From a virus (lineage: Duplodnaviria > Caudoviricetes), in IMG/VR virus record IMGVR_UViG_3300044678_001332, positions 1 through 58,461 of that record: a stretch of DNA of 58,461 nt, one strand, 5' to 3'. How positions within the stretch are numbered: the first letter of the stretch is position 1; each line of letters begins with the position of its first letter. The notes beneath the pieces were generated by a model. It searched no databases, was not told where the DNA came from, and was given only the letters and a program-made list of their open reading frames with translations. The position numbers and the translations under genes were made by a program. Positions 1-6,506 of the stretch are shown one piece after another.

Positions 1-154
1 CTCTTATAAACTCACCATCAAGTTTCTTTAATGGATTATATTTCCAAGATGCTTCTTCAAGTGTTTCTTGTTTAGGTTCTTCTAATGGACCACAATCACA
101 AGTTATAGTATGACCACAATAACATTTAATTTGTTTAGGTTCTTCTTGTTCCAT
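1..154 (-). CDS. Hypothetical protein, partial (runs off window start)
   Basis: Manual translation from ATG at 154: MEQEEPKQIKCYCGHTITCDCGPLEEPKQETLEEASWKYNP..., open to position 1. Has a CxC...CxC motif. Confidence 0.6.
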   Translation of the reverse strand, partial: MEQEEPKQIKCYCGHTITCDCGPLEEPKQETLEEASWKYNPLKKLDGEFIR

Positions 155-470
155 AAGTTTTATTTCTGTTATCAGTAATAGTATTGTTTATTATACCATC
201 TAATGCCATTAATGCATTAGCAGCTACACAAGCAAGGTGATGTACTTTAGATTCATCCATATCTTCACCAGATAAATACTGATTAGTATGTCTTAATAAA
301 GCATCTATGTACCTTAATACATCACCTTGTTTAGAATAGTTAAAATCACCATACTTATCAGCACCATGAGTAAATACTTTAGCTACTTCATTTAATGCTA
401 ATTGTGGTATCATAGTAAACTTTGGTTTACCATCATCAAACTTAATAAACTGCTCCATGAAATATATCAT
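135..470 (-). CDS. dATP/dGTP diphosphohydrolase-domain protein (DUF5664-like)
   Basis: KFDDGK...EVAKVFTHGADKYGDFNY...RYIDALLRH...GEDMDES..HHLACVAANAL matches the family pattern. Confidence 0.75.
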   Translation of the reverse strand: MIYFMEQFIKFDDGKPKFTMIPQLALNEVAKVFTHGADKYGDFNYSKQGDVLRYIDALLRHTNQYLSGEDMDESKVHHLACVAANALMALDGIINNTITDNRNKTYGTRRT

Positions 471-720
471 TTAATATTTCTTCTTTTCTTTCAATATCAA
501 ACCAATACATAGTTGCAATACCTTTTACATCACTATAAAATGCATAACATTGTACTGAATCTAATAAATCTCTATGTCTATCAAGTTTATTACAAACAAG
601 ACTATCATTACTTATAACAAGTAAATTACATTCTTGGTTTATAATGTGAGTCTTTAATTTACTCTGTGAATAAGCACTTAAGCTTATCATTAATGTTAAA
701 ATAGTTATTATTCTTTTCAT
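442..720 (-). CDS. Hypothetical protein with N-terminal signal peptide
   Basis: 92-aa ORF starting MKRIITILTLMISLSAYSQ. Confidence 0.6.
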   Translation of the reverse strand: MKRIITILTLMISLSAYSQSKLKTHIINQECNLLVISNDSLVCNKLDRHRDLLDSVQCYAFYSDVKGIATMYWFDIERKEEILNDIFHGAVY

Positions 721-740
721 GTTAATTAGTTTTCTTGTTA

Positions 741-777
741 ATAAAAAATAAGTGGTAGCATTACACTACCACTTATT
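741..777 (-). terminator. Intrinsic terminator downstream of the tRNA cluster
   Basis: ATAAGTGGTAG/CTACCACTTAT stem followed by a T-run on the minus strand. Confidence 0.6.
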
Positions 778-811
778 ACAAACACACAAACACTATATCC
801 CCATATAGTAG

Positions 812-939
812 CAGTCAGGACAGGAATCGAACCTGTATGGTAACTTATGAGTTGGACTTTCACCGTGTTTTTCAAGGTTACTCTATGTTACCTTTACTGT
901 TAACCCTTATTCATGCGTCTACCATTCCGCCACCTGACT
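812..939 (-). ncRNA. tRNA-like RNA (Leu-type D arm) with ~78-nt insert replacing the anticodon/variable arm
   Basis: Acceptor AGTCAGG/CCTGACT, D arm TGGCGGAATGGTAGACGC, T arm ACAGG-TTCGATT-CCTGT. No canonical anticodon stem-loop found. Confidence 0.7.
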
Positions 940-941
940 AC

Positions 942-999
942 ATAATGTGTTATATAAGTAGCAAAACCATATGTTTTTGTTGATTATATAACACATTAT
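942..999. repeat. Perfect 16-bp inverted repeat spanning the spacer between the two tRNA-type genes
   Basis: ATAATGTGTTATATAA (942-957) / TTATATAACACATTAT (984-999). Confidence 0.9.
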
Positions 1000-1001
1000 T
1001 G

Positions 1002-1073
1002 TGTTTCCACTAGGAATCGAACCTAGATTGATGGTTTAGAAAACCATTGTTCTATCCGTTGAACTATGGAAAC
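1002..1073 (-). tRNA. tRNA-Arg (anticodon UCU)
   Basis: GTTTCCA/TGGAAAC acceptor, GTTC/GAAC D stem, ATGGT-TT-TCT-AA-ACCAT anticodon arm, CTAGG-TTCGATT-CCTAG T arm. CCA not encoded. Confidence 0.92.
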
Positions 1074-1078
1074 AAATA

Positions 1079-1111
1079 AAAACTAGCCCCAAAGATAATG
1101 AGGCTAGTTTT
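1079..1111 (-). terminator. Hairpin terminator (possibly bidirectional)
   Basis: AAAACTAGCC/GGCTAGTTTT stem flanked by A/T runs, just after the stop of 1135..1620. Confidence 0.55.
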
Positions 1112-1134
1112 AAAAAACAACAGCAAGTTATTAT

Positions 1135-1620
1135 TTATGCTCCAATAGATGCACGAAGTGCTTCTAGGTGAGAAGCTACTGATGAATCAGTAACATTACC
1201 CTCTACTACATTGTGACCTTTAGATGAAAATGCAGATTTAACTGCACTCTCAAATGCTGGAGAATCAGTATCACCAAATACTACAGTAGTATAAGTGTTT
1301 ACTGTTCTTACACCACCATCAGCAGTAGGGATATCATATCCACTTACTTCACGAGTTTCAATTGAACCCGCAAACCACCCACCATTGGCAGGATTGCTTT
1401 GGTTAAAAATAGCATCTGCATAGCCAACATCCATCTTATTAAGATAGTTGTTTTCATAGCAGTTGATTTTAGTAGTACGTGCTTGAGAAGCTGGTACTAC
1501 CATCTTTCCAAACGGAGTATCTATAAATCTAACCTCACCAAAGGTGATAGTTCTATAGTTACGACCATTTTTGTCTTGTTTTACTTCTGATTGAGCTGTT
1601 TTAATTACGATGTTACTCAT
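1135..1620 (-). CDS. Hypothetical phage protein (beta-rich)
   Basis: 161-aa ORF with natural composition, in the minus-strand gene run. Confidence 0.7.
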   Translation of the reverse strand: MSNIVIKTAQSEVKQDKNGRNYRTITFGEVRFIDTPFGKMVVPASQARTTKINCYENNYLNKMDVGYADAIFNQSNPANGGWFAGSIETREVSGYDIPTADGGVRTVNTYTTVVFGDTDSPAFESAVKSAFSSKGHNVVEGNVTDSSVASHLEALRASIGA

Positions 1621-1625
1621 GATTT

Positions 1626-1874
1626 CTAATTGTTTTTAAATTGTTTTTGATTGTTTTTGTTATTGTACTTATTTTGTTGCTGTTGTTTTATTTCTTTTAT
1701 GGCTAGTCTAATGTTATTAATGTCATTTTGACACTTGTTAAACATTATTACATCACCTTTGTTAATAAAGAAGTCACTCCACATAAAGTTCATCTGCAAG
1801 TTTTTATGCAGAATATCCATTTGTGTCATGTCCTCTTCATTCCACCGAATAGGCATTACAAAGTTATTGTTCAT
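1626..1874 (-). CDS. Hypothetical protein
   Basis: 82-aa ORF overlapping its upstream neighbour by 4 nt. Confidence 0.6.
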   Translation of the reverse strand: MNNNFVMPIRWNEEDMTQMDILHKNLQMNFMWSDFFINKGDVIMFNKCQNDINNIRLAIKEIKQQQQNKYNNKNNQKQFKNN

Positions 1875-2056
1875 TGCTTTTCTTTTTTTATTTGATTGAA
1901 GATGTGTTGTGATTGTGAGTTGTAGTCTAACACATCATTATAGCCTACAACTTTTTTTAGTTTTGGTTTTTGAGATAAAAAGTCACTCTCTGGCTTGTTA
2001 GGTTTAACCAGAGAGCTAACTTTAATTCTCATTATATTCCAGAGCGATAAATCCAT
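1871..2056 (-). CDS. Hypothetical protein
   Basis: 61-aa ORF in a tight operon arrangement. Confidence 0.5.
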   Translation of the reverse strand: MDLSLWNIMRIKVSSLVKPNKPESDFLSQKPKLKKVVGYNDVLDYNSQSQHIFNQIKKEKQ

Positions 2057-2126
2057 ATAGATATCATCATTAGAATGTAAAACATAAGAACATAATGTTC
2101 TGGGTCAAATTTTTTTAATATTGCTT

Positions 2127-2393
2127 TCATATTTCTACAATAAATAAATTACCTTTTTTACTTAACTTGTATTTACCTGTTTTTATAAGCTTTTTAAATT
2201 GCTTAGTAACAGACTGTTTTTCAATTTTACTACGATGATAGTAGTAATGTTGAGTAACAGCAGATAAACTTCTGTTAAGTTTTAATGCTGCTTGTTCAAA
2301 AGCATAACTTAATACAAATTGTTTATTTTCTTCAACAATTTGAAATAATATTTGCTCTTCTTTTGGACTCCACGAATTTCTATTAGTTGTCAT
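2127..2393 (-). CDS. Myb/SANT-like helix-turn-helix DNA-binding protein
   Basis: RNSWSPKEEQIL...AALKLNRSLSAVTQHYY resembles the W-S/T-x-E-E...RS..AV Myb-type pattern. Confidence 0.55.
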   Translation of the reverse strand: MTTNRNSWSPKEEQILFQIVEENKQFVLSYAFEQAALKLNRSLSAVTQHYYYHRSKIEKQSVTKQFKKLIKTGKYKLSKKGNLFIVEI

Positions 2394-2619
2394 GAAAATT
2401 AAAGTTTAAAGGATTAATAACTCTAGCAGTATATTCTGGCTGCTCATCCAGTTCTCCTTCATTGGGAATTAATTCTACTTCCACAATTCTAGATTCTAAT
2501 TTGTCAACAACTATTACATTGTTGAATTTAGATAATGGATACCATTTTTGTTTTGTTGGTGCTGATGGAAGGTATACCATAATATTACCATCAACATCGT
2601 GTAGTTCTCCTAAATACAT
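2383..2619 (-). CDS. Hypothetical protein
   Basis: 78-aa ORF overlapping the downstream gene start. Confidence 0.6.
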   Translation of the reverse strand: MYLGELHDVDGNIMVYLPSAPTKQKWYPLSKFNNVIVVDKLESRIVEVELIPNEGELDEQPEYTARVINPLNFNFHDN

Positions 2620-2624
2620 GTGTA

Positions 2625-2759
2625 TTAGTGTTTTGTCCAGCTCTTTTTAAAATTAGGGTCAGCTGATAATCCCTTGCAACCATATTTCTTACTTGATGTA
2701 CAGCTAGTGGCTACAGCTACTATACACATTAAAATGAAAATTGAGATTGTTTCTTTCAT
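2625..2759 (-). CDS. Small putative lipoprotein (44 aa, not in ORF track)
   Basis: Manual translation MKETISIFILMCIVAVATSC-TSSKKYGCKGLSADPNFKKSWTKH: hydrophobic stretch plus ATSC lipobox-like motif. Confidence 0.55.
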   Translation of the reverse strand: MKETISIFILMCIVAVATSCTSSKKYGCKGLSADPNFKKSWTKH

Positions 2760-2835
2760 GCTACGATTTTATACCAAAGCTTGGAAACTATATATTTCAA
2801 TAGTTCCCAAGCAATGATTGTTGTTAATAAATCCA

Positions 2836-3315
2836 TCAAAAATCTATTGTTATTTGCTTTGGAGGAGGTGGCAATTGATTATTATTTTCTCTCCAAATAT
2901 CCCAAGTACCAGGGAAATGGCTTTTAAAAAGAATATTGTTATCCTTTTTATACTTTTCTATTTTCAGAGATCTATTAAACATCATACAAGCTTTCTTATA
3001 CTTATAAAAATTAGTATAGATTTCTTGTTTAATGTTATAGTAGTTTTGAAGCATACTAACTTCAAAACTTACTGAATAATAGAAATTTTCTCTCCCATTT
3101 TTATCTATTGTAGAAAATACTTTTACAGTACAATCTTTTCCCAATGGATAGGTTTTTTCGTTTTGGTCATTTACAACCATTAAAGTACAATCATTTTTTA
3201 ATGACGTACTATAAGTCAATTTGACAGAAATTGTTTGTCTCATTGGGTGCTCTAGAATTTTAGCACATTTCTCTAATGTGACAAAGTTTAGTTCATTCTT
3301 GAATTTTGAATTCAT
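2836..3315 (-). CDS. Hypothetical protein
   Basis: 159-aa ORF preceded by the shared early leader motif. Confidence 0.65.
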   Translation of the reverse strand: MNSKFKNELNFVTLEKCAKILEHPMRQTISVKLTYSTSLKNDCTLMVVNDQNEKTYPLGKDCTVKVFSTIDKNGRENFYYSVSFEVSMLQNYYNIKQEIYTNFYKYKKACMMFNRSLKIEKYKKDNNILFKSHFPGTWDIWRENNNQLPPPPKQITIDF

Positions 3316-3348
3316 CTTTTAAAAGATTTAAAGGGTTAGAAAAAATTA

Positions 3349-3600
3349 TTAACATCCATAGGAAAAATGATTTGTTCCATCATCATCCCAGTAATCTGCT
3401 TCATTAAGTATTTCTTGAAATTCTTCTTCTTGAAAGTTACTTTCAATGTTTGATGTAGATTTAACTACTTGTGGCTTGTCAATTAATAAAGACTCATAAT
3501 AATGGATGATAGTTGTTACTCCTGTTCTAGGAATAACACTACCATCCATTAAATTAGTGAATCTCTGCATTGTTTTTTGTAGAGCTTCTTGCTTTGTCAT
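3349..3600 (-). CDS. Hypothetical protein
   Basis: 83-aa ORF with acidic C-terminus. Confidence 0.6.
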   Translation of the reverse strand: MTKQEALQKTMQRFTNLMDGSVIPRTGVTTIIHYYESLLIDKPQVVKSTSNIESNFQEEEFQEILNEADYWDDDGTNHFSYGC

Positions 3601-3602
3601 AA

Positions 3603-4100
3603 TTAAGCCATAGAAGAATAATCAATTTCTACTGGTTGGGGAGCTTGCCACACTTGTAATTTATTCCAAGATGATAAATCCATCGATGAATAAAGAGTTT
3701 CCATTTGTGGAAGTATTACATTATGACCTGTTGTGTTGTCACCCCATGACTTCTTGTACTCTTGATAATTCTCATGAGTAATCTCAGCAACATTTACGTC
3801 TTTACTGACATAAATATGTACTGATTTATTTTGTTCATAGCTGTAATTTACTTCTCTTCCAAAAGCATTAAAGCTAATGAAAGTAAATTTCCTATTGTTA
3901 CTATCAACAACAACCTGATTAATTACAGGTTCTTCATGAATACTTAACATTAATTCCATAGCAACTTCTGGATTAGGTGTTGCATATATTACCTTTAGTA
4001 AGTTATCAACATCCATTCCGCGATACTTAGACTCTAAAGCTGCTTTAAATACTTTAGAAAATTCTTGTTGATTGTTTTGATTGTTAGCTAATTTAGCCAT
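3603..4100 (-). CDS. Hypothetical protein
   Basis: 165-aa ORF preceded by the shared early leader motif. Confidence 0.7.
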   Translation of the reverse strand: MAKLANNQNNQQEFSKVFKAALESKYRGMDVDNLLKVIYATPNPEVAMELMLSIHEEPVINQVVVDSNNRKFTFISFNAFGREVNYSYEQNKSVHIYVSKDVNVAEITHENYQEYKKSWGDNTTGHNVILPQMETLYSSMDLSSWNKLQVWQAPQPVEIDYSSMA

Positions 4101-4130
4101 TTTATTTGTGGTTTAAAAGGTTACAAAAAA

Positions 4131-4695
4131 ATTAGTTGTAATACTACTACTGTGGAGATCAACCCACCCAACTCTATAGTTATATCACCTGAATATAACT
4201 CCTATCCTCGTAGTATTACAACTATAATTGGTTGTTAAGTTACCAACTTAGCTGCAGTGATTAAGTATTTCAACTTAATTTACATTACTCCAGATTTATA
4301 CCCTGCTATATCTGGTAAACAGTTAAAACACCTAAAACTTTGATAGAGTACAGTAAGAGTTCTCTATTGTACTTTCATTCTTACTACCTTAACAGCTTCC
4401 TTTGTGCATTTCTACATCAACATCAGAGTTTCAGCTAATTAAGCTAAGGAGTATAAGACCGACCTTACACTAACTTGTAATTAAATCTCAAAATATACCT
4501 TATAGGTGCTGAATGAGTATTACAATATTGTTAGTCTATCAAAGAATTAGGTGTTGTTTGCACTCAGTTGTAGTCCGCTAGATGTGTTAGTAAGGAAATA
4601 CCTATACTACAACTGTTAACCATAAGGTTAGTGCAAATGTGAAACAGGTGAGAGCAGAGCCACTAAATAGTGGATGCTCTACAACCTGCAGAACT
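4131..4695 (-). ncRNA. Putative structured non-coding RNA tract (multi-hairpin)
   Basis: No ORF in the track. Stems at 4133-4147/4210-4224, 4327-4347/4535-4555, 4287-4316, 4557-4637 and ~4646-4688. Strand inferred from flanking genes. Confidence 0.5.
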
Positions 4696-4696
4696 T

Positions 4697-5059
4697 CTAA
4701 ATTAATCCATAATTCTCTGGATTATCTAAAGCCATTTGTGCCATATATTCTATGGCTGGATAACTCACAGTTATTTCAAAGAACTGTAATAATCCTATCT
4801 CTTCAGCCTGAAGTATAGTTGTTCCTTCAGGTAGTCTCCCGCCCATAAACTGAGCAACATATAAAGTGTCTTTATTAGACAACTTTACATTTATTCTATT
4901 CATGGGAACACCTAAATGATCAGCAAGGTCTTGATGACCAATAGCTGATTGGCATTCATTAAAGTTGATATGTTCCTTTTTAATAGGAACAACTTCAATA
5001 GTTGCAACGCTATCTATAAGCATTTGCAACGAAAACGCATTTCCAATGATTTTTTTCAT
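4697..5059 (-). CDS. acrIII-1: AcrIII-1 / DUF1874 (STIV B116-like) cyclic tetra-adenylate ring nuclease, anti-CRISPR type III
   Basis: Family motifs in order: NAFSLQML, SAIGH, NRINVKL..KDTLYVAQ, RLPEG..L..EEI..LQFFEI. Colinear with SIRV1 gp29 as I recall it. Confidence 0.85.
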   Translation of the reverse strand: MKKIIGNAFSLQMLIDSVATIEVVPIKKEHINFNECQSAIGHQDLADHLGVPMNRINVKLSNKDTLYVAQFMGGRLPEGTTILQAEEIGLLQFFEITVSYPAIEYMAQMALDNPENYGLI

Positions 5060-5526
5060 TGTTTTAAGATTTAAAAAGTTAGTAAAAAATGGAATTCCAC
5101 CACATGTGATAACGTACTAGTTTATCTCTGATAAGTATGACTTATCTATGCCTTTCTGATATAGTATTACTATACGTGAGTGTAAACTTCTAACCTTGAA
5201 CCTGTATCCCAACAGAGGCTTCTTCGTAGTTTTAATATCTCAGTCCTTACACCGACTTTGACAACTATGCTTAAACACAACAACCACATTTCGCAGTTAT
5301 TACATATACACATAGACCTTCAGCTTTAAAGTTAAGCTAGAACTCCAGATTATAAAATGTCTGGTCATTTGATTTATTATACTCCATTACAAAACCCATA
5401 AGGATTAAATTACATGTAATATAGAGAGTGGTTATCCTGTACACAGCACCACTAAACAACCCCATTAATTTATAAGTGAATGGACACTATACATAGTTTA
5501 CTCTATGTACCCTTATTGCTAAGGTA

Positions 5527-5725
5527 ATTGCCCCTCTGCACTCAATTGTAATAAGGTTTATTCTCTACGCACTGATGATTAGGTCGTCCTATAAATAGAA
5601 GTCTAATCATACACACTATTAGCTAAATAAACATTGGCCAACTCTTACACAAACAATATGTGCAGTTCTCACCTTTATATTACAACTGCTCACCCTTGGG
5701 AAGTGAGTTATGGTGCATTAGCAAT
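5527..5725 (-). ncRNA. Twister ribozyme (P1-type) with large P5 insertion
   Basis: Minus strand reads ATTGC-TAA-TGCA-CC-ATAA-CTCAC-TTCCCAAGG-GTGAG-CAGTTGTAATA...TATTACAATTG-AG-TGCA-GAGGG-GCAAT. P1, UAA site, P2, P4 with UCCCAAG loop and the GAGGG pseudoknot partner are all present. Confidence 0.75.
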
Positions 5726-5781
5726 GTGCTCTTACTAAACTCACAACATGTGAGAACCTAGGAGCAATGGTTTTTGGCAAT

Positions 5782-6162
5782 TTAAATACTTGATTTAGAT
5801 AGATATAATTCCATACCAATTTTCATCTTATTAAATTTAGGTGAAAATATAATTTCAGGATATCTGCAATACTTAAATATAACTTCTAATTTCTTTTTAT
5901 CAAAGAATTCAGAGTATATTGTAATATCACTGTAATCATCTTCATCAGATTCAATGTGTCCTTTTAATTCACCATTACATTGGTTAATAAGGTAAGACAA
6001 AACCTGTTTTAAATCATCATTTTTAATGAGATTCAAGATTTCTTGTGTTTGATCAATTGTGTTCACGTTTTTTGAATTGAGGATTAGTGCTATATATACT
6101 ATAATGTTCCAACAATAGCACTTAGCTGGAAACATGTCAAATTCTATCCTTTTGAATACCAC
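5782..6162 (-). CDS. Hypothetical protein (start uncertain)
   Basis: 126-aa ORF from a GTG start. Confidence 0.5.
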   Translation of the reverse strand: MVFKRIEFDMFPAKCYCWNIIVYIALILNSKNVNTIDQTQEILNLIKNDDLKQVLSYLINQCNGELKGHIESDEDDYSDITIYSEFFDKKKLEVIFKYCRYPEIIFSPKFNKMKIGMELYLSKSSI

Positions 6163-6192
6163 CTAATAATCAACAACTTACAACAAGTTACA

Positions 6193-6231
6193 ATAAGTAT
6201 AGTACAGTTGTAATAACCATACTATACTTAT
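6193..6231. repeat. 12-bp perfect hairpin with CAGTTGTAATA in the loop
   Basis: ATAAGTATAGTA/TACTATACTTAT. Confidence 0.7.
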
Positions 6232-6245
6232 GAGCAAAAAGAAGC

Positions 6246-6506
6246 CTAAAAGGCTTCTTCTGCTGTGATACCAGGAAAATGAACCACTTTGTTCTCTCCA
6301 ACAGTGGAGATAACTAAGTTTTCATATTCTTTTCTCACTTCTTCTTGGGTAAGCGTACTTGCTAGAAATATGGGCTGATTCTCAAAAACCAACGCTTTAC
6401 GCAATTGGCCTTTATTTTTCCCTGACCTAACAGTGTACTTACCCCAACCTAGTTTTTTGGTATCTATTGAACTCAATAGACGCCAGAAAATCAATTTGTC
6501 TTTCAT
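6246..6506 (-). CDS. Hypothetical protein, first gene of the leftward transcription unit
   Basis: 86-aa ORF next to the strand-switch region. Confidence 0.6.
   Translation of the reverse strand: MKDKLIFWRLLSSIDTKKLGWGKYTVRSGKNKGQLRKALVFENQPIFLASTLTQEEVRKEYENLVISTVGENKVVHFPGITAEEAF

What the first reader, a model, noticed from the sequence alone, without database searches (positions are those of the whole stretch)
4131..5780. Candidate RNA-plus-protein counter-defence island: twister ribozyme, structured RNA, AcrIII-1, structured RNA
Seen: in an otherwise densely coded genome, ~1.3 kb of hairpin-rich non-coding sequence brackets a single ring-nuclease gene. A self-cleaving ribozyme sits at the 5' side and hairpin types recur on both sides. 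Inference: the early transcript self-cleaves to release a 5'-OH RNA carrying the acr message plus a set of structured decoy RNAs. I know of no described locus with this combination, but could not search.
Basis: inference. Interest (0 to 1): 0.8.

Follow-up and report, generated by a model that had tools for sequence, protein, structure and literature searches.

The report
Twister-type ribozyme RNAs flanking phage AcrIII-1
In a freshwater crAss-like phage, two long non-coding stretches around a cyclic-nucleotide-degrading anti-CRISPR gene turn up in RNA libraries, and one begins with a probable twister-type self-cleaving ribozyme of a phage-specific kind that the standard RNA family library does not detect.

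Summary
The anatomy is real. Two tracts with no ORF of 60 aa or more (4101-4696 and 5060-5781) bracket a 120-aa DUF1874/AcrIII-1 gene on the minus strand of a crAss-like phage.

Minus strand 5725-5527 carries a three-way-junction RNA with every descriptor feature of a type-P1 twister ribozyme. These are the U^A site, a general-base G, two pseudoknots, and a long P5 insert. Covariation supports it: 19 of 29 pairs change on both sides in 36 sequences. More than 100 viral contigs carry it. No Rfam twister model detects it.

A degenerate copy lacking the catalytic loops lies in the other tract (4635-4557).

Contigs from four freshwater RNA-library runs (one study) cover 5105-5710 and 4144-4620. 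Three of these contigs end 9-11 nt inside the predicted cleavage site.

The "counter-defence island with decoy RNAs" reading is not supported. Only 3 of 18 acr-homologue loci have the motif nearby. The closest relatives carry the acr gene among tightly packed genes. Tracts of the same type occur without acr.

My best reading is that these are ribozyme-processed, stable non-coding RNAs. They resemble the unexplained early long non-coding RNAs of crAss-like phage phi14:2. The anti-CRISPR gene sits among them as cargo.

The parts
5060..5781 (-). Non-coding tract NC1 between the upstream small ORF (5782-6135/6162) and the acr gene
   Evidence: No ORF of 60 aa or more under three codes. RNA-library contigs cover 5105-5710.
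5725..5775 (-). Conserved leader motif C with a hairpin (stem 5754-5749 / 5745-5740), directly 5' of the ribozyme. It may be the optional P0 hairpin or a promoter or processing element.
   Evidence: Four related copies exist (window, L002, L006 twice) and the hairpin covaries. A weaker look-alike lies at 5116-5098 (family D3).
5527..5725 (-). Twister-type ribozyme, type P1 with a long P5. Elements: P1 5725-5721/5531-5527; predicted cleavage between T5720 and A5719; P2 5717-5714/5540-5537; PK1 C5713,C5712 with G5695,G5694; P4 5707-5703/5693-5689; L4 5702-5694; P5 5688-5679/5552-5543 enclosing a 126-nt insert; general-base G5536; PK2 G5534-5532 with C5700-5698.
   Evidence: R1 scores it 92 bits, E 2.4e-21. 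Covariation is shown. Descriptor features are taken from PMC11662667. No Rfam hit.
5105..5710 (-). Stretch covered by RNA-library contigs. Depth is 68-73 in one sample and 29-33 in the other.
   Evidence: contigs 5105-5710, 5166-5637, 5209-5709 and 5209-5708. Adapter-like letters abut 5105.
4697..5059 (-). acrIII-1 / DUF1874 ring-nuclease gene, 120 aa; His42 aligns with the catalytic His47 of SIRV1 gp29
   Evidence: Pfam PF08960 E 1.1e-5, 25.9 bits against a cut-off of 26. PDB hits 2j6b, 2x4i and 6scf. phrog_5063 E 2e-12. AF2 pLDDT 85.9. Foldseek 6scf E 1.2e-9, TM 0.68-0.75.
4101..4696 (-). Non-coding tract NC2 between the acr gene and the 165-aa ORF (3603-4100)
   Evidence: No ORF of 60 aa or more. 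Fold z -4.1 (minus) and -5.6 (plus). RNA-library contigs cover 4144-4620.
4645..4689 (-). Terminator-like long hairpin starting 8 nt after the acr stop codon
   Evidence: Fold. It is 95% identical in L006, where no acr gene precedes it, and conserved in L002.
4557..4635 (-). Degenerate twister relative (variant B). It keeps P2 and P5, has a tetraloop hairpin in place of P4/L4, and lacks the GAGGG strand and P1.
   Evidence: R1 partial match, 34.3 bits, model positions 11-102. Similar copies occur in L006, L002 and L008.
4327..4555 (-). Long-range stem (4555-4532 with 4350-4327; 24 nt, 88% complementary) enclosing a branched domain
   Evidence: Both arms are 100% identical in L006 around a different, shorter interior.
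4133..4224 (-). 92-nt hairpin with a 15-bp perfect stem of the AGTTGTAAT/ATTACAACT type, ending 32 nt before the next gene's ATG
   Evidence: (I3). Similar stand-alone hairpins lie before genes at 1918-1952 and in L015.

Best explanation
The leftward operon of small genes in this crAss-like phage carries two long non-coding tracts that are made as RNA.

The first tract starts with a twister-class self-cleaving ribozyme: type P1, a long variable P5 domain, and a C-G instead of G-C first pair in the 2-bp pseudoknot. I infer that co-transcriptional cleavage between U5720 and A5719 cuts the RNA free from the upstream message. The compact ribozyme fold with a 5'-OH stays at the head of the downstream RNA, which makes it long-lived.

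The second tract starts with a decayed copy of the same element and is strongly structured.

The ribozyme is a generic, mobile RNA-processing module of this phage group. It sits in the sense orientation between genes, often 13-50 nt before a start codon. The AcrIII-1 gene is one of many cargos found beside it and is not its obligate partner.

Shown: the motif, its covariation, its distribution, its orientation, the presence of the tracts in RNA libraries, and the ring-nuclease fold.

Inferred: the self-cleavage itself, the stabilising effect, and any function of the RNA bodies.
For: Motif and covariation:
- Alignment A6 holds 36 of the 86 R1 matches. These loci were found with a seed in the 5' half, so the 3' half is unbiased. 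91.5% of cells are paired and 19 of 29 pairs change on both sides. 0 of 500 shuffles reach this, and slid controls give 29-52% paired. By helix: P4 5 of 5, P5 8 of 10, P1 5 of 5, 3-bp pseudoknot 1 of 3.
- Alignment A2 (19 sequences) gives the same picture.
- Many G-U pairs fall on the modelled strand, for example 12 U-G at the P1 closing pair. This fits an RNA read from this strand.

Twister descriptor features (PMC11662667) all present:
- N-A cleavage site: T in 18 of 19 rows, A invariant.
- General-acid A and general-base G, both invariant.
- 2-bp pseudoknot with 'NC' on its 5' side.
- A second pseudoknot between L4 and the 3' strand of L1.
- An auxiliary P5/L5 stem-loop.

Distribution:
- All 72 new loci give an R1 match at E <= 0.001, and 84 of 86 matches run end to end.
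- Only 2 of 39 genome-contig pattern matches are real R1 matches.

Orientation:
- The downstream ORF is co-oriented in 23 of the 23 units that have one. Two further units have none. This rests on my own ORF script.

RNA:
- Contigs from 4 RNA-library runs (2 samples, 1 study) cover 5105-5710 and 4144-4620 at 99% identity or more.
- Three of these contigs end at 5708-5710.
- One abuts adapter-like letters at 5105.

Context:
- Hatchet ribozymes score above Rfam's gathering score in related tracts, in L006 and L043; these are 2 of 11 loci scanned.
- The literature describes ribozymes clustering near each other and near phage genes.
- phi14:2 has two long intergenic regions that are transcribed early and persistently.
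Against: - No Rfam twister-P1, -P3, -P5 or twister-sister model matches the window, L015 or the shortest 73-nt form L091:2533-2605 at E <= 10.
- Self-cleavage is untested.
- The RNA evidence is assembled contigs from one study. Contigs cannot show true ends, strand or level, and DNA carry-over in RNA libraries is possible.
- Contig ends lie 9-11 nt from the predicted site, not at it.
- P2 and both pseudoknots hardly vary, so they rest on conservation plus one compensatory change. That change appears in L005 and L091b, in rows with different P4 stems.
- The 5525-5105 body shows no conservation in relatives and no fold excess.
- phi14:2's own tracts have no R1 or Rfam match.
Confidence: 0.6

Rival explanations
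1. RNA-plus-protein counter-defence island. The ribozyme-released structured RNAs are decoys or RNA anti-CRISPRs, for example mimics of host CRISPR repeats. They act together with AcrIII-1 against type III or other CRISPR systems.
For: - An authentic AcrIII-1-family gene lies between the tracts.
- The tracts are present in RNA libraries.
- Recurring GTTGTA...TACAAC-based hairpins recall, from memory only, the ends of some Bacteroidota CRISPR repeats.
- RNA anti-CRISPRs that mimic repeats exist (PMC10651486; only the listing and the start of the abstract were seen).
Against: - The motif lies within 2 kb of an acr homologue in only 3 of 18 loci.
- The closest acr relatives lack the tracts.
- The tracts occur without acr in L005 and L006.
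- The recurring hairpin is the P5 stem of a ribozyme whose sequence covaries freely. That is not expected of a repeat mimic.
- No host and no host repeat is known, and no repeat comparison was made.
Confidence: 0.1
2. Motif A is a conserved structured RNA that does not self-cleave. It would be a protein-binding or translational 5'-UTR element, or a twister-derived scaffold. The RNA ends seen in the contigs would come from host RNases or from transcription starts.
For: - Rfam twister models fail.
- Variant B shows that the P2-P5 junction persists without the catalytic loops.
- Contig ends are 9-11 nt away from the predicted site.
Against: - Every catalytic and pseudoknot descriptor position is present and nearly invariant in 36 independently seeded sequences.
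- A compensatory change in the 3-bp pseudoknot appears in two rows with different P4 stems, L005 and L091b.
Confidence: 0.2
3. The tracts act as DNA. They would be arrays of promoters for the virion RNA polymerase, an origin, or miniature inverted-repeat mobile elements. The hairpins would then be DNA features.
For: - The tracts are modular and shuffled among relatives (and the joints).
- A perfect 15-bp inverted repeat lies at 4133-4224.
- The plus strand of NC2 folds as well as the minus strand.
Against: - G-U pairs are specific to the sense strand.
- Orientation is strictly the same as the genes.
- The tracts are present in RNA libraries.
- The phi14:2 study found no common upstream motif for its early transcripts.
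Confidence: 0.05
4. The tracts encode proteins that are missed because of stop-codon recoding, or because the genes are very small.
For: Some crAss-like phages reassign stop codons (recalled). Small ORFs of 31-47 aa exist on the minus strand.
Against: - No long frames open under TAG=Q or TGA=W.
- The large late genes are intact under table 11.
- The small ORFs are not conserved in relatives.
Confidence: 0.03

Closest known systems
Twister ribozyme, type P1 with auxiliary P5/L5 (Rfam RF03160 and relatives)
   Same: - The order of elements is P1, U^A site, P2, 2-bp pseudoknot strand, L2, P4 with an L4 loop that pairs with both internal loops, P5, P2 3' strand, general-base G, 3-bp pseudoknot strand, P1.
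- P1 is weak and variable.
- It occurs beside phage genes and beside other ribozymes.
   Different: - No Rfam twister model detects it, even at E <= 10.
- The first pseudoknot pair is C-G, with CC in L2 and GG in L4.
- Every one of the 122 matches that covers that part of the model has a P5, which is long (16 to about 150 nt). The 2017 review (PMC6154101) gives P5 in 1% of annotated twisters.
- It is found almost only in viral contigs.
Long non-coding early RNAs of Cellulophaga crAss-like phage phi14:2 (g004-g005 and g005-g006 junctions)
   Same: - Both are crAss-like phages.
- Each has two roughly 0.7-kb non-coding tracts around one small ORF in a small-gene region near one end of the sequence as given (the window's genome ends are not known).
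- Each is transcribed in the direction of the genes.
- In phi14:2 the RNAs are more abundant than most mRNAs and they persist. Here RNA-library contigs cover the tracts.
   Different: - There is no sequence, R1 or Rfam match between the two.
- The phi14:2 central ORF is not DUF1874.
- No ribozyme is reported or found there.
Hatchet ribozyme (RF02678)
   Same: It occupies the same kind of tract in relatives L006 and L043, on the gene strand. This fits the published idea that the ribozyme class is interchangeable at such sites.
   Different: It is not present in the window and has an unrelated fold.
AcrIII-1 (SIRV1 gp29, PDB 6SCF/2X4I) and Crn2 ring nucleases
   Same: The fold matches (Foldseek E 1.2e-9, TM 0.68-0.75). 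The NAFS, GH, NR and RLxEG motifs are conserved, and His42 aligns with the catalytic His47.
   Different: - Identity is only about 30%.
- The Pfam score is 0.1 bit under the gathering cut-off.
- There is a C-terminal helical extension of about 20 residues with lower confidence.
- Activity and anti-CRISPR effect are untested, and the host is unknown.
RNA anti-CRISPRs (Racrs, solitary repeat units)
   Same: Both are phage-encoded small structured RNAs that can sit beside acr genes.
   Different: Racrs are defined by likeness to the host's CRISPR repeat. No such likeness was tested or seen here, and the hairpins here are parts or relics of a ribozyme.

Membership tests
Twister ribozyme | Cleavage site N-A, with the A as general acid at the junction of P1 and L1 | tested here: met
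   T5720/A5719. In A2 the T is present in 18 of 19 rows and the following AA is invariant. In A6 the AA is invariant in 36 of 36 rows. The feature is as listed in PMC11662667.
Twister ribozyme | General-base G directly 3' of the P2 3' strand | tested here: met
   G5536. The column is G in 35 of 36 rows of A6 (one row has A) and invariant in A2.
Twister ribozyme | 2-bp pseudoknot (PK1; 5' side 'NC') between L2 and L4 | tested here: met
   C5713,C5712 pair with G5695,G5694. 100% of cells are paired in A6, with no double change.
Twister ribozyme | Second pseudoknot between L4 and the 3' strand of L1 | tested here: met
   CCC pairs with GGG. 100% of cells are paired in A6. One C-G to A-U compensatory change appears in L091b, and the same change appears in L005 in A2.
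Twister ribozyme | Helices P1, P2 and P4 supported by covariation | tested here: met
   P4: 5 of 5 pairs covary. P1: 5 of 5, but only 63% of cells are paired. P2 is invariant and therefore uninformative.
Twister ribozyme | Match to Rfam covariance models RF03160, RF03154 or RF02684 | tested here: not met
   No match at E <= 10 in the window, L015 or L091. This is a detection tool and not a defining property, but it keeps the claim at 'twister-type variant'.
Twister ribozyme | Site-specific self-cleavage giving 5'-OH and 2',3'-cyclic phosphate | not testable with these tools
   The only hint is that three RNA-library contigs end 9-11 nt 3' of the predicted site.
Twister-sister ribozyme (RF02681) | Match to the family model; no Watson-Crick loop-loop pseudoknot | tested here: not met
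   No match at E <= 10. The motif has loop-loop pairing with a compensatory change.
AcrIII-1 / DUF1874 (PF08960) | Pfam gathering score | tested here: inconclusive
   25.9 bits against a cut-off of 26, E 1.1e-5.
AcrIII-1 / DUF1874 (PF08960) | DUF1874 fold | tested here: met
   AF2 model pLDDT 85.9, pTM 0.76. Foldseek hits: 6scf E 1.2e-9, 2x4i, 2j85, 2j6b, and Crn2 8y7g.
AcrIII-1 / DUF1874 (PF08960) | Catalytic histidine (H47 of SIRV1 gp29) | tested here: met
   His42 aligns with H47 of 2x4i and is invariant in 13 homologues. The role of H47 is taken from bioRxiv 10.1101/778746.
AcrIII-1 / DUF1874 (PF08960) | cA4 cleavage and inhibition of type III CRISPR | not testable with these tools
RNA anti-CRISPR (Racr) | Sequence and structure likeness to a CRISPR repeat of the host | not tested
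   The host is unknown. A pattern scan of genomes for the 8-bp stem would have given thousands of chance hits, so none was run.
Known large phage-associated ncRNAs (GOLLD, ROOL and others in Rfam) | Match to the family model | tested here: not met
   Nothing reached the gathering score in the window except a tRNA. Only chance-level matches appear at E <= 10 in 3900-6400.

The most novel reading that the evidence does not exclude
The twister-headed RNAs are the functional product, not mere spacers. In this reading a phage-specific twister subclass releases and caps long, stable, fast-evolving structured RNAs. The long P5 domain and the 3' body would be the working cargo. These RNAs would be the same biological entity as the unexplained abundant early lncRNAs of crAss-like phage phi14:2. 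They would act in host takeover or counter-defence alongside neighbours such as AcrIII-1, for example as sponges for an RNA-guided or RNA-sensing host system.
Probability: 0.15. Interest if true: 0.85.

Novelty: new variant of a known kind. Interest (0 to 1): 0.55.

Why it matters
What phage-associated self-cleaving ribozymes do has been an open question since 2014. The reviews read here still call their roles elusive.

This locus offers a concrete and testable case:
- a widespread phage-only twister variant that the standard RNA family library misses;
- that ribozyme sitting at the head of an RNA that turns up in lake RNA libraries;
- a phage family, the crAss-like phages, whose model member makes abundant early non-coding RNAs of unknown function.

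The locus also shows that annotation based on Rfam undercounts ribozymes in viral metagenomes. Separately, it places an AcrIII-1-family ring nuclease in a freshwater crAss-like phage.

Tried and rejected
Rfam:
- The whole window at gathering score gave only a tRNA.
- 3900-6400 at E <= 10 gave six chance-level snoRNA, miRNA and sRNA matches.
- The four twister-type families searched one by one in the window's record gave no match.
- Short-insert relatives L015 and L091 gave no twister match.

Similarity searches:
- blastn of 4050-5850 against the phage collection found nothing.
- phi14:2's first 9 kb has no Rfam hit at gathering, no half-motif by nhmmer and no R1 hit. Its central ORF is not DUF1874.
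- In the genome-contig scan, 37 of 39 pattern matches were not R1 matches at E <= 0.01 with default filters. They are taken as chance, with about 13 expected by my own rough estimate.
- The first 15-mer seed returned 44 stretches. By my script only 28 units (23 distinct sequences) had the 5' half, and the rest looked like chance matches in coding sequence. This seed lies in P5/P2, so the invariance of those parts in A1 and A2 is by construction. I therefore repeated the work with a seed in the 5' half.

RNA contigs:
- No contig lay on the acr ORF (4697-5059) or on 3603-4100. Only one low-depth contig (5841-6019, depth 3.2) lay on the upstream ORF.
I do not use this as evidence that the mRNAs are rarer than the tracts, nor as a control against DNA carry-over.
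- The unlaid DNA runs are not used for habitat beyond "freshwater".

Other tests:
- Recoding (TAG=Q, table 4) does not open the tracts.
- The sigma-70 promoter scan gave 13 sites against 16.9 expected, and the terminator scan 3 against 0.9. None of these is informative for the tracts.
- Twister-sister, hammerhead, pistol, hairpin and group I/II intron readings were considered by eye and dropped, because their core motifs are absent and Rfam gave no hits.
- The CRISPR-repeat-mimic idea could not be tested. The host is unknown and the pattern is too short for a collection scan.

Tool and library problems:
A shorter alignment worked.
- The original twister, new-ribozyme-classes and Eiler papers are not held.
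- The Python machine was lost. Gene-context counts were therefore not repeated on the 72 new loci.
Full report
WHAT THE WINDOW IS. The window is a 58.5-kb IMG/VR viral record, about 60% complete. Its + strand from about 6950 carries a crAss-like structural module. It has a PHROG terminase, portal and major head protein. The head protein is about 32% identical to those of crAss-like phages of Bacteroides, Flavobacterium and Cellulophaga. Very large ORFs follow up to the end of the window. Positions 1-6506 are a leftward operon of small ORFs without family matches, plus tRNA genes. The four RNA-library runs that I laid are freshwater metatranscriptomes and hold contigs 99% identical or more.

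THE OBSERVATION. Positions 4101-4696 (596 nt) and 5060-5781 (722 nt) have no ORF of 60 aa or more under table 11, TAG=Q or table 4. The only exception is a read-through extension of the acr frame. Between them lies one ORF, 4697-5059 on the minus strand.
- Pfam STIV_B116-like: E 1.1e-5, 25.9 bits against a cut-off of 26.
- phrog_5063: E 2e-12.
- phmmer against solved structures: 2j6b, 2x4i and 6scf, E 1e-5 to 2e-4.
- An AlphaFold2 model built on 13 homologues has pLDDT 85.9.
- Its best Foldseek matches are 6scf (the AcrIII-1 entry, E 1.2e-9, TM 0.68-0.75), 2x4i, 2j85, 2j6b and a Csx1-Crn2 fusion.
- His42 aligns with His47 of SIRV1 gp29, the catalytic residue according to the AcrIII-1 preprint (passages read). 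It is invariant in the 13 homologues.

The ring-nuclease call is therefore sound.

"Hairpin-rich" holds for only one tract. 4101-4696 folds far better than shuffles (z -4.1 minus strand, -5.6 plus strand, 100 shuffles each). 5060-5781 does not (z -1.3 and -0.5, 20 shuffles each).

THE RIBOZYME-LIKE MOTIF. Comparison with five related loci showed that the tracts are diverged apart from short islands. The islands define a unit on the minus strand. A 15-mer from it found more copies, but that seed lies inside the motif. I therefore repeated the search with a seed in the 5' half only.

A covariance model built from 11 copies (A3, R1) gave these results:
- The window scores 92 bits at 5727-5525(-), E 2.4e-21.
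- All 72 newly fetched loci match, with 86 matches in total; 84 of these run end to end and 2 are cut by locus ends.
- Thirteen of the 72 loci carry two or three copies.

On 36 of the 86 matches (the shorter, non-duplicate ones, aligned with MAFFT and not with the model) the structure I wrote is 91.5% paired. Changes on both sides occur in 19 of 29 pairs. No shuffle of 500 reaches this, and slid controls give 29-52% paired. By helix:
- P4: 5 of 5 pairs covary.
- P5: 8 of 10.
- P1: 5 of 5, but only 63% of cells are paired.
- The 3-bp pseudoknot has one C-G to A-U compensatory change. The same change occurs in L005, which has a different P4.
- P2 and the 2-bp pseudoknot are always paired but almost never vary.

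Frequent G-U pairs on the modelled strand argue for RNA of that strand. The earlier 19-sequence alignment gave the same picture; I had dropped 4 atypical rows of 23 from it.

IS IT A TWISTER? The order of parts is:
- P1
- U^A-A
- P2
- CC
- A-Y-A-A
- P4 closed by the loop UUCCCAAGG
- P5
- A-G
- the P2 3' strand
- G-A-GGG
- the P1 3' strand

This satisfies each item of the descriptor in McKinley et al. 2024 (PMC11662667, passages read): an N-A cleavage site, a general-acid A, a general-base G, a 2-bp pseudoknot with 'NC' on the 5' side, a second pseudoknot, and an auxiliary P5/L5. It also fits the description in the 2017 review that L4 pairs with both L1 and L2 (PMC6154101). From memory, it also parallels the rice twister element by element.

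Even so, no Rfam twister-P1, -P3, -P5 or twister-sister model reports it at E <= 10. That holds for the window, for a 113-nt slice of L015 and for the shortest natural form, 73 nt with a 16-nt P5. I attribute this to two things. P5 is always present; the 2017 review (PMC6154101) gives it in 1% of annotated twisters. The first pseudoknot pair is swapped. That explanation is an inference. I therefore file the motif as a twister-type variant at about 0.75, not as a proven member. Self-cleavage is untested.

The motif is essentially viral. The same pattern hit 39 genome contigs, but only 2 are R1 matches, both in MAG bins.

WHERE IT SITS. In the first set there are 25 canonical units: 24 in 22 loci, plus the window. 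All lie between ORFs. The downstream ORF is co-oriented in all 23 units that have one, and in about ten the next ATG is within 50 nt. These counts rest on my own ORF script, ATG starts only, 70 aa or more. The script machine was lost before I could repeat this on the 72 new loci. In relatives, Rfam's hatchet ribozyme scores above gathering in the same kind of tract (L006:1066-1197 and L043:5253-5416; 2 of 11 loci scanned). This matches the published observation that bacterial and phage self-cleaving ribozymes cluster with each other and with phage genes, that the class seems interchangeable, and that their purpose is unknown (PMC6765202, section 5 and passages; PMC10085705, passages).

THE REST OF THE TRACTS.
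- Directly 5' of the ribozyme lies a conserved leader with a covarying hairpin (5775-5725). There are four related copies in three phages.
- The second tract begins with a terminator-like hairpin (4689-4645).
- Next comes a degenerate copy of the ribozyme that keeps P2 and P5 but has lost L4, the GAGGG strand and P1 (4635-4557; R1 34 bits, partial).
- Then comes a 24-nt long-range stem, with arms identical in L006 around a different interior.
- It ends with a 92-nt hairpin whose perfect 15-bp stem is of the same AGTTGTAAT/ATTACAACT type as P5, 32 nt before the next gene.
- Such stand-alone hairpins also precede genes at 1918-1952 and in L015.

I read these elements as relics or modules of the same element family. 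Their function is open.

RNA EVIDENCE. Four metatranscriptome runs (two samples, one study) hold contigs 99% identical or more. On the 2.9-kb stretch laid, they cover 5105-5710 (contig depth 68-73 and 29-33) and 4144-4620 (3.5-17).
- Three contigs end at 5710, 5709 and 5708, which is 9-11 nt 3' of the predicted cleavage site (T5720^A5719).
- One contig abuts 22 loose letters at 5105 that I recognise, from memory, as the end of an Illumina adapter.
- The orientation of that adapter would place the RNA on the minus strand, with a defined 3' end 45 nt before the acr ATG.
- Two low-depth contigs come from a relative in which the ribozyme's 3' half is joined to the 4323-4237 module. This shows that the tracts are shuffled.

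These are assembled contigs of one study. By the tool's own rules they show presence and not level, strand or true ends, so I count them as a hint.

The parallel with phi14:2 is striking. There, two long intergenic regions on either side of one small ORF are transcribed in the direction of the genes. They are more abundant than most genes, appear from the earliest time point and do not decline. [quoted passage not shown] The record shows a nearly ORF-free 2905-4601. The two phages share no sequence or model match there, so the parallel is architectural only. The preprint's supplementary tables with coordinates were not seen.

IS IT A COUNTER-DEFENCE ISLAND? Of 18 metagenome loci with an acr homologue, R1 finds the motif within the 2-kb flanks in 3.
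- In L208 a canonical copy ends 33 nt before the acr ATG.
- L207 is the same contig as L003, where a canonical copy lies 470 nt downstream and a ribozyme 3' half lies 40 nt upstream of the ATG.
- L202 is the same contig as L002, with a degenerate copy 1.15 kb downstream.

The closest homologues (82-83% identical: L201, L203; also L209) sit in tight packs of small genes without long tracts. Conversely, homologues of the downstream 165-aa gene are preceded by tracts with a canonical twister (L005) or a hatchet plus degenerate copies (L006) and no acr. The acr gene and the RNA tracts are thus independent, mobile neighbours. A decoy role has no support and was not testable, because the host and its repeats are unknown.

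VERDICT. The finding is real and more specific than "structured RNA". It is a phage-specific twister-type ribozyme family that Rfam does not see, here heading an RNA found in lake RNA libraries, beside a genuine AcrIII-1-family gene. It is a new variant of a known kind in a known kind of context. Its interest lies in giving the old question of phage ribozyme function, and the newer one of crAss-like lncRNAs, a concrete and testable handle.

Noticed in passing
window 812-939 (-): A second tRNA gene carries a 64-nt stretch where the 15-nt anticodon arm should be. It scores 36.9 bits against Rfam tRNA (gathering score 29) when searched locally. ARAGORN and the whole-window Rfam scan both missed it. 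L015:10332-10489 has a similar 158-nt tRNA match. This may be an intron or an inserted element in crAss-like phage tRNAs.
   Followed up: partly
L006:1066-1197 (+) and L043:5253-5416 (+): Hatchet ribozymes score above Rfam's gathering score (60.6 and 64.1 bits against 51). They lie in the long non-coding tracts of related phages, near twister-type copies.
   Followed up: partly
window 1918-1952: A 35-nt hairpin has an AGTTGTAG/CTACAACT stem and ends 43 nt before the ATG of ORF 1626-1874(-). It is the same stem type as the ribozyme's P5 and the 4133-4224 hairpin. It may be a recurrent 5'-UTR module.
   Followed up: no
window 6066-6245 (-): The start of ORF 5782-6162 is doubtful. Window 6141-6074 is conserved in L006 (87%), where no ORF of 40 aa or more on that strand covers it. 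A hairpin at 6198-6232 carries the TTACAACTG motif in its loop. The non-coding region may therefore extend from 6245 to about 6066.
   Followed up: no
window 4323/5528 joint in RNA contigs of runs X17 and X18: Low-depth RNA-library contigs from a relative join the ribozyme's 3' half (5553-5528) through 3 letters to 4323-4237. This indicates modular reshuffling of tract segments between related phages.
   Followed up: no
window 5098-5116 and 5742-5760: A 19-nt segment of the leader hairpin upstream of the ribozyme recurs at 84% identity at the place where one RNA contig shows a defined end (5105). It may be a shared processing or termination signal.
   Followed up: no
L208:1-60: In one relative the tract that leads to the twister and acr starts right after the 3' end of a tRNA gene. 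tRNA genes also lie within 2-4 kb of the tracts in the window, L002, L005 and L006.
   Followed up: no
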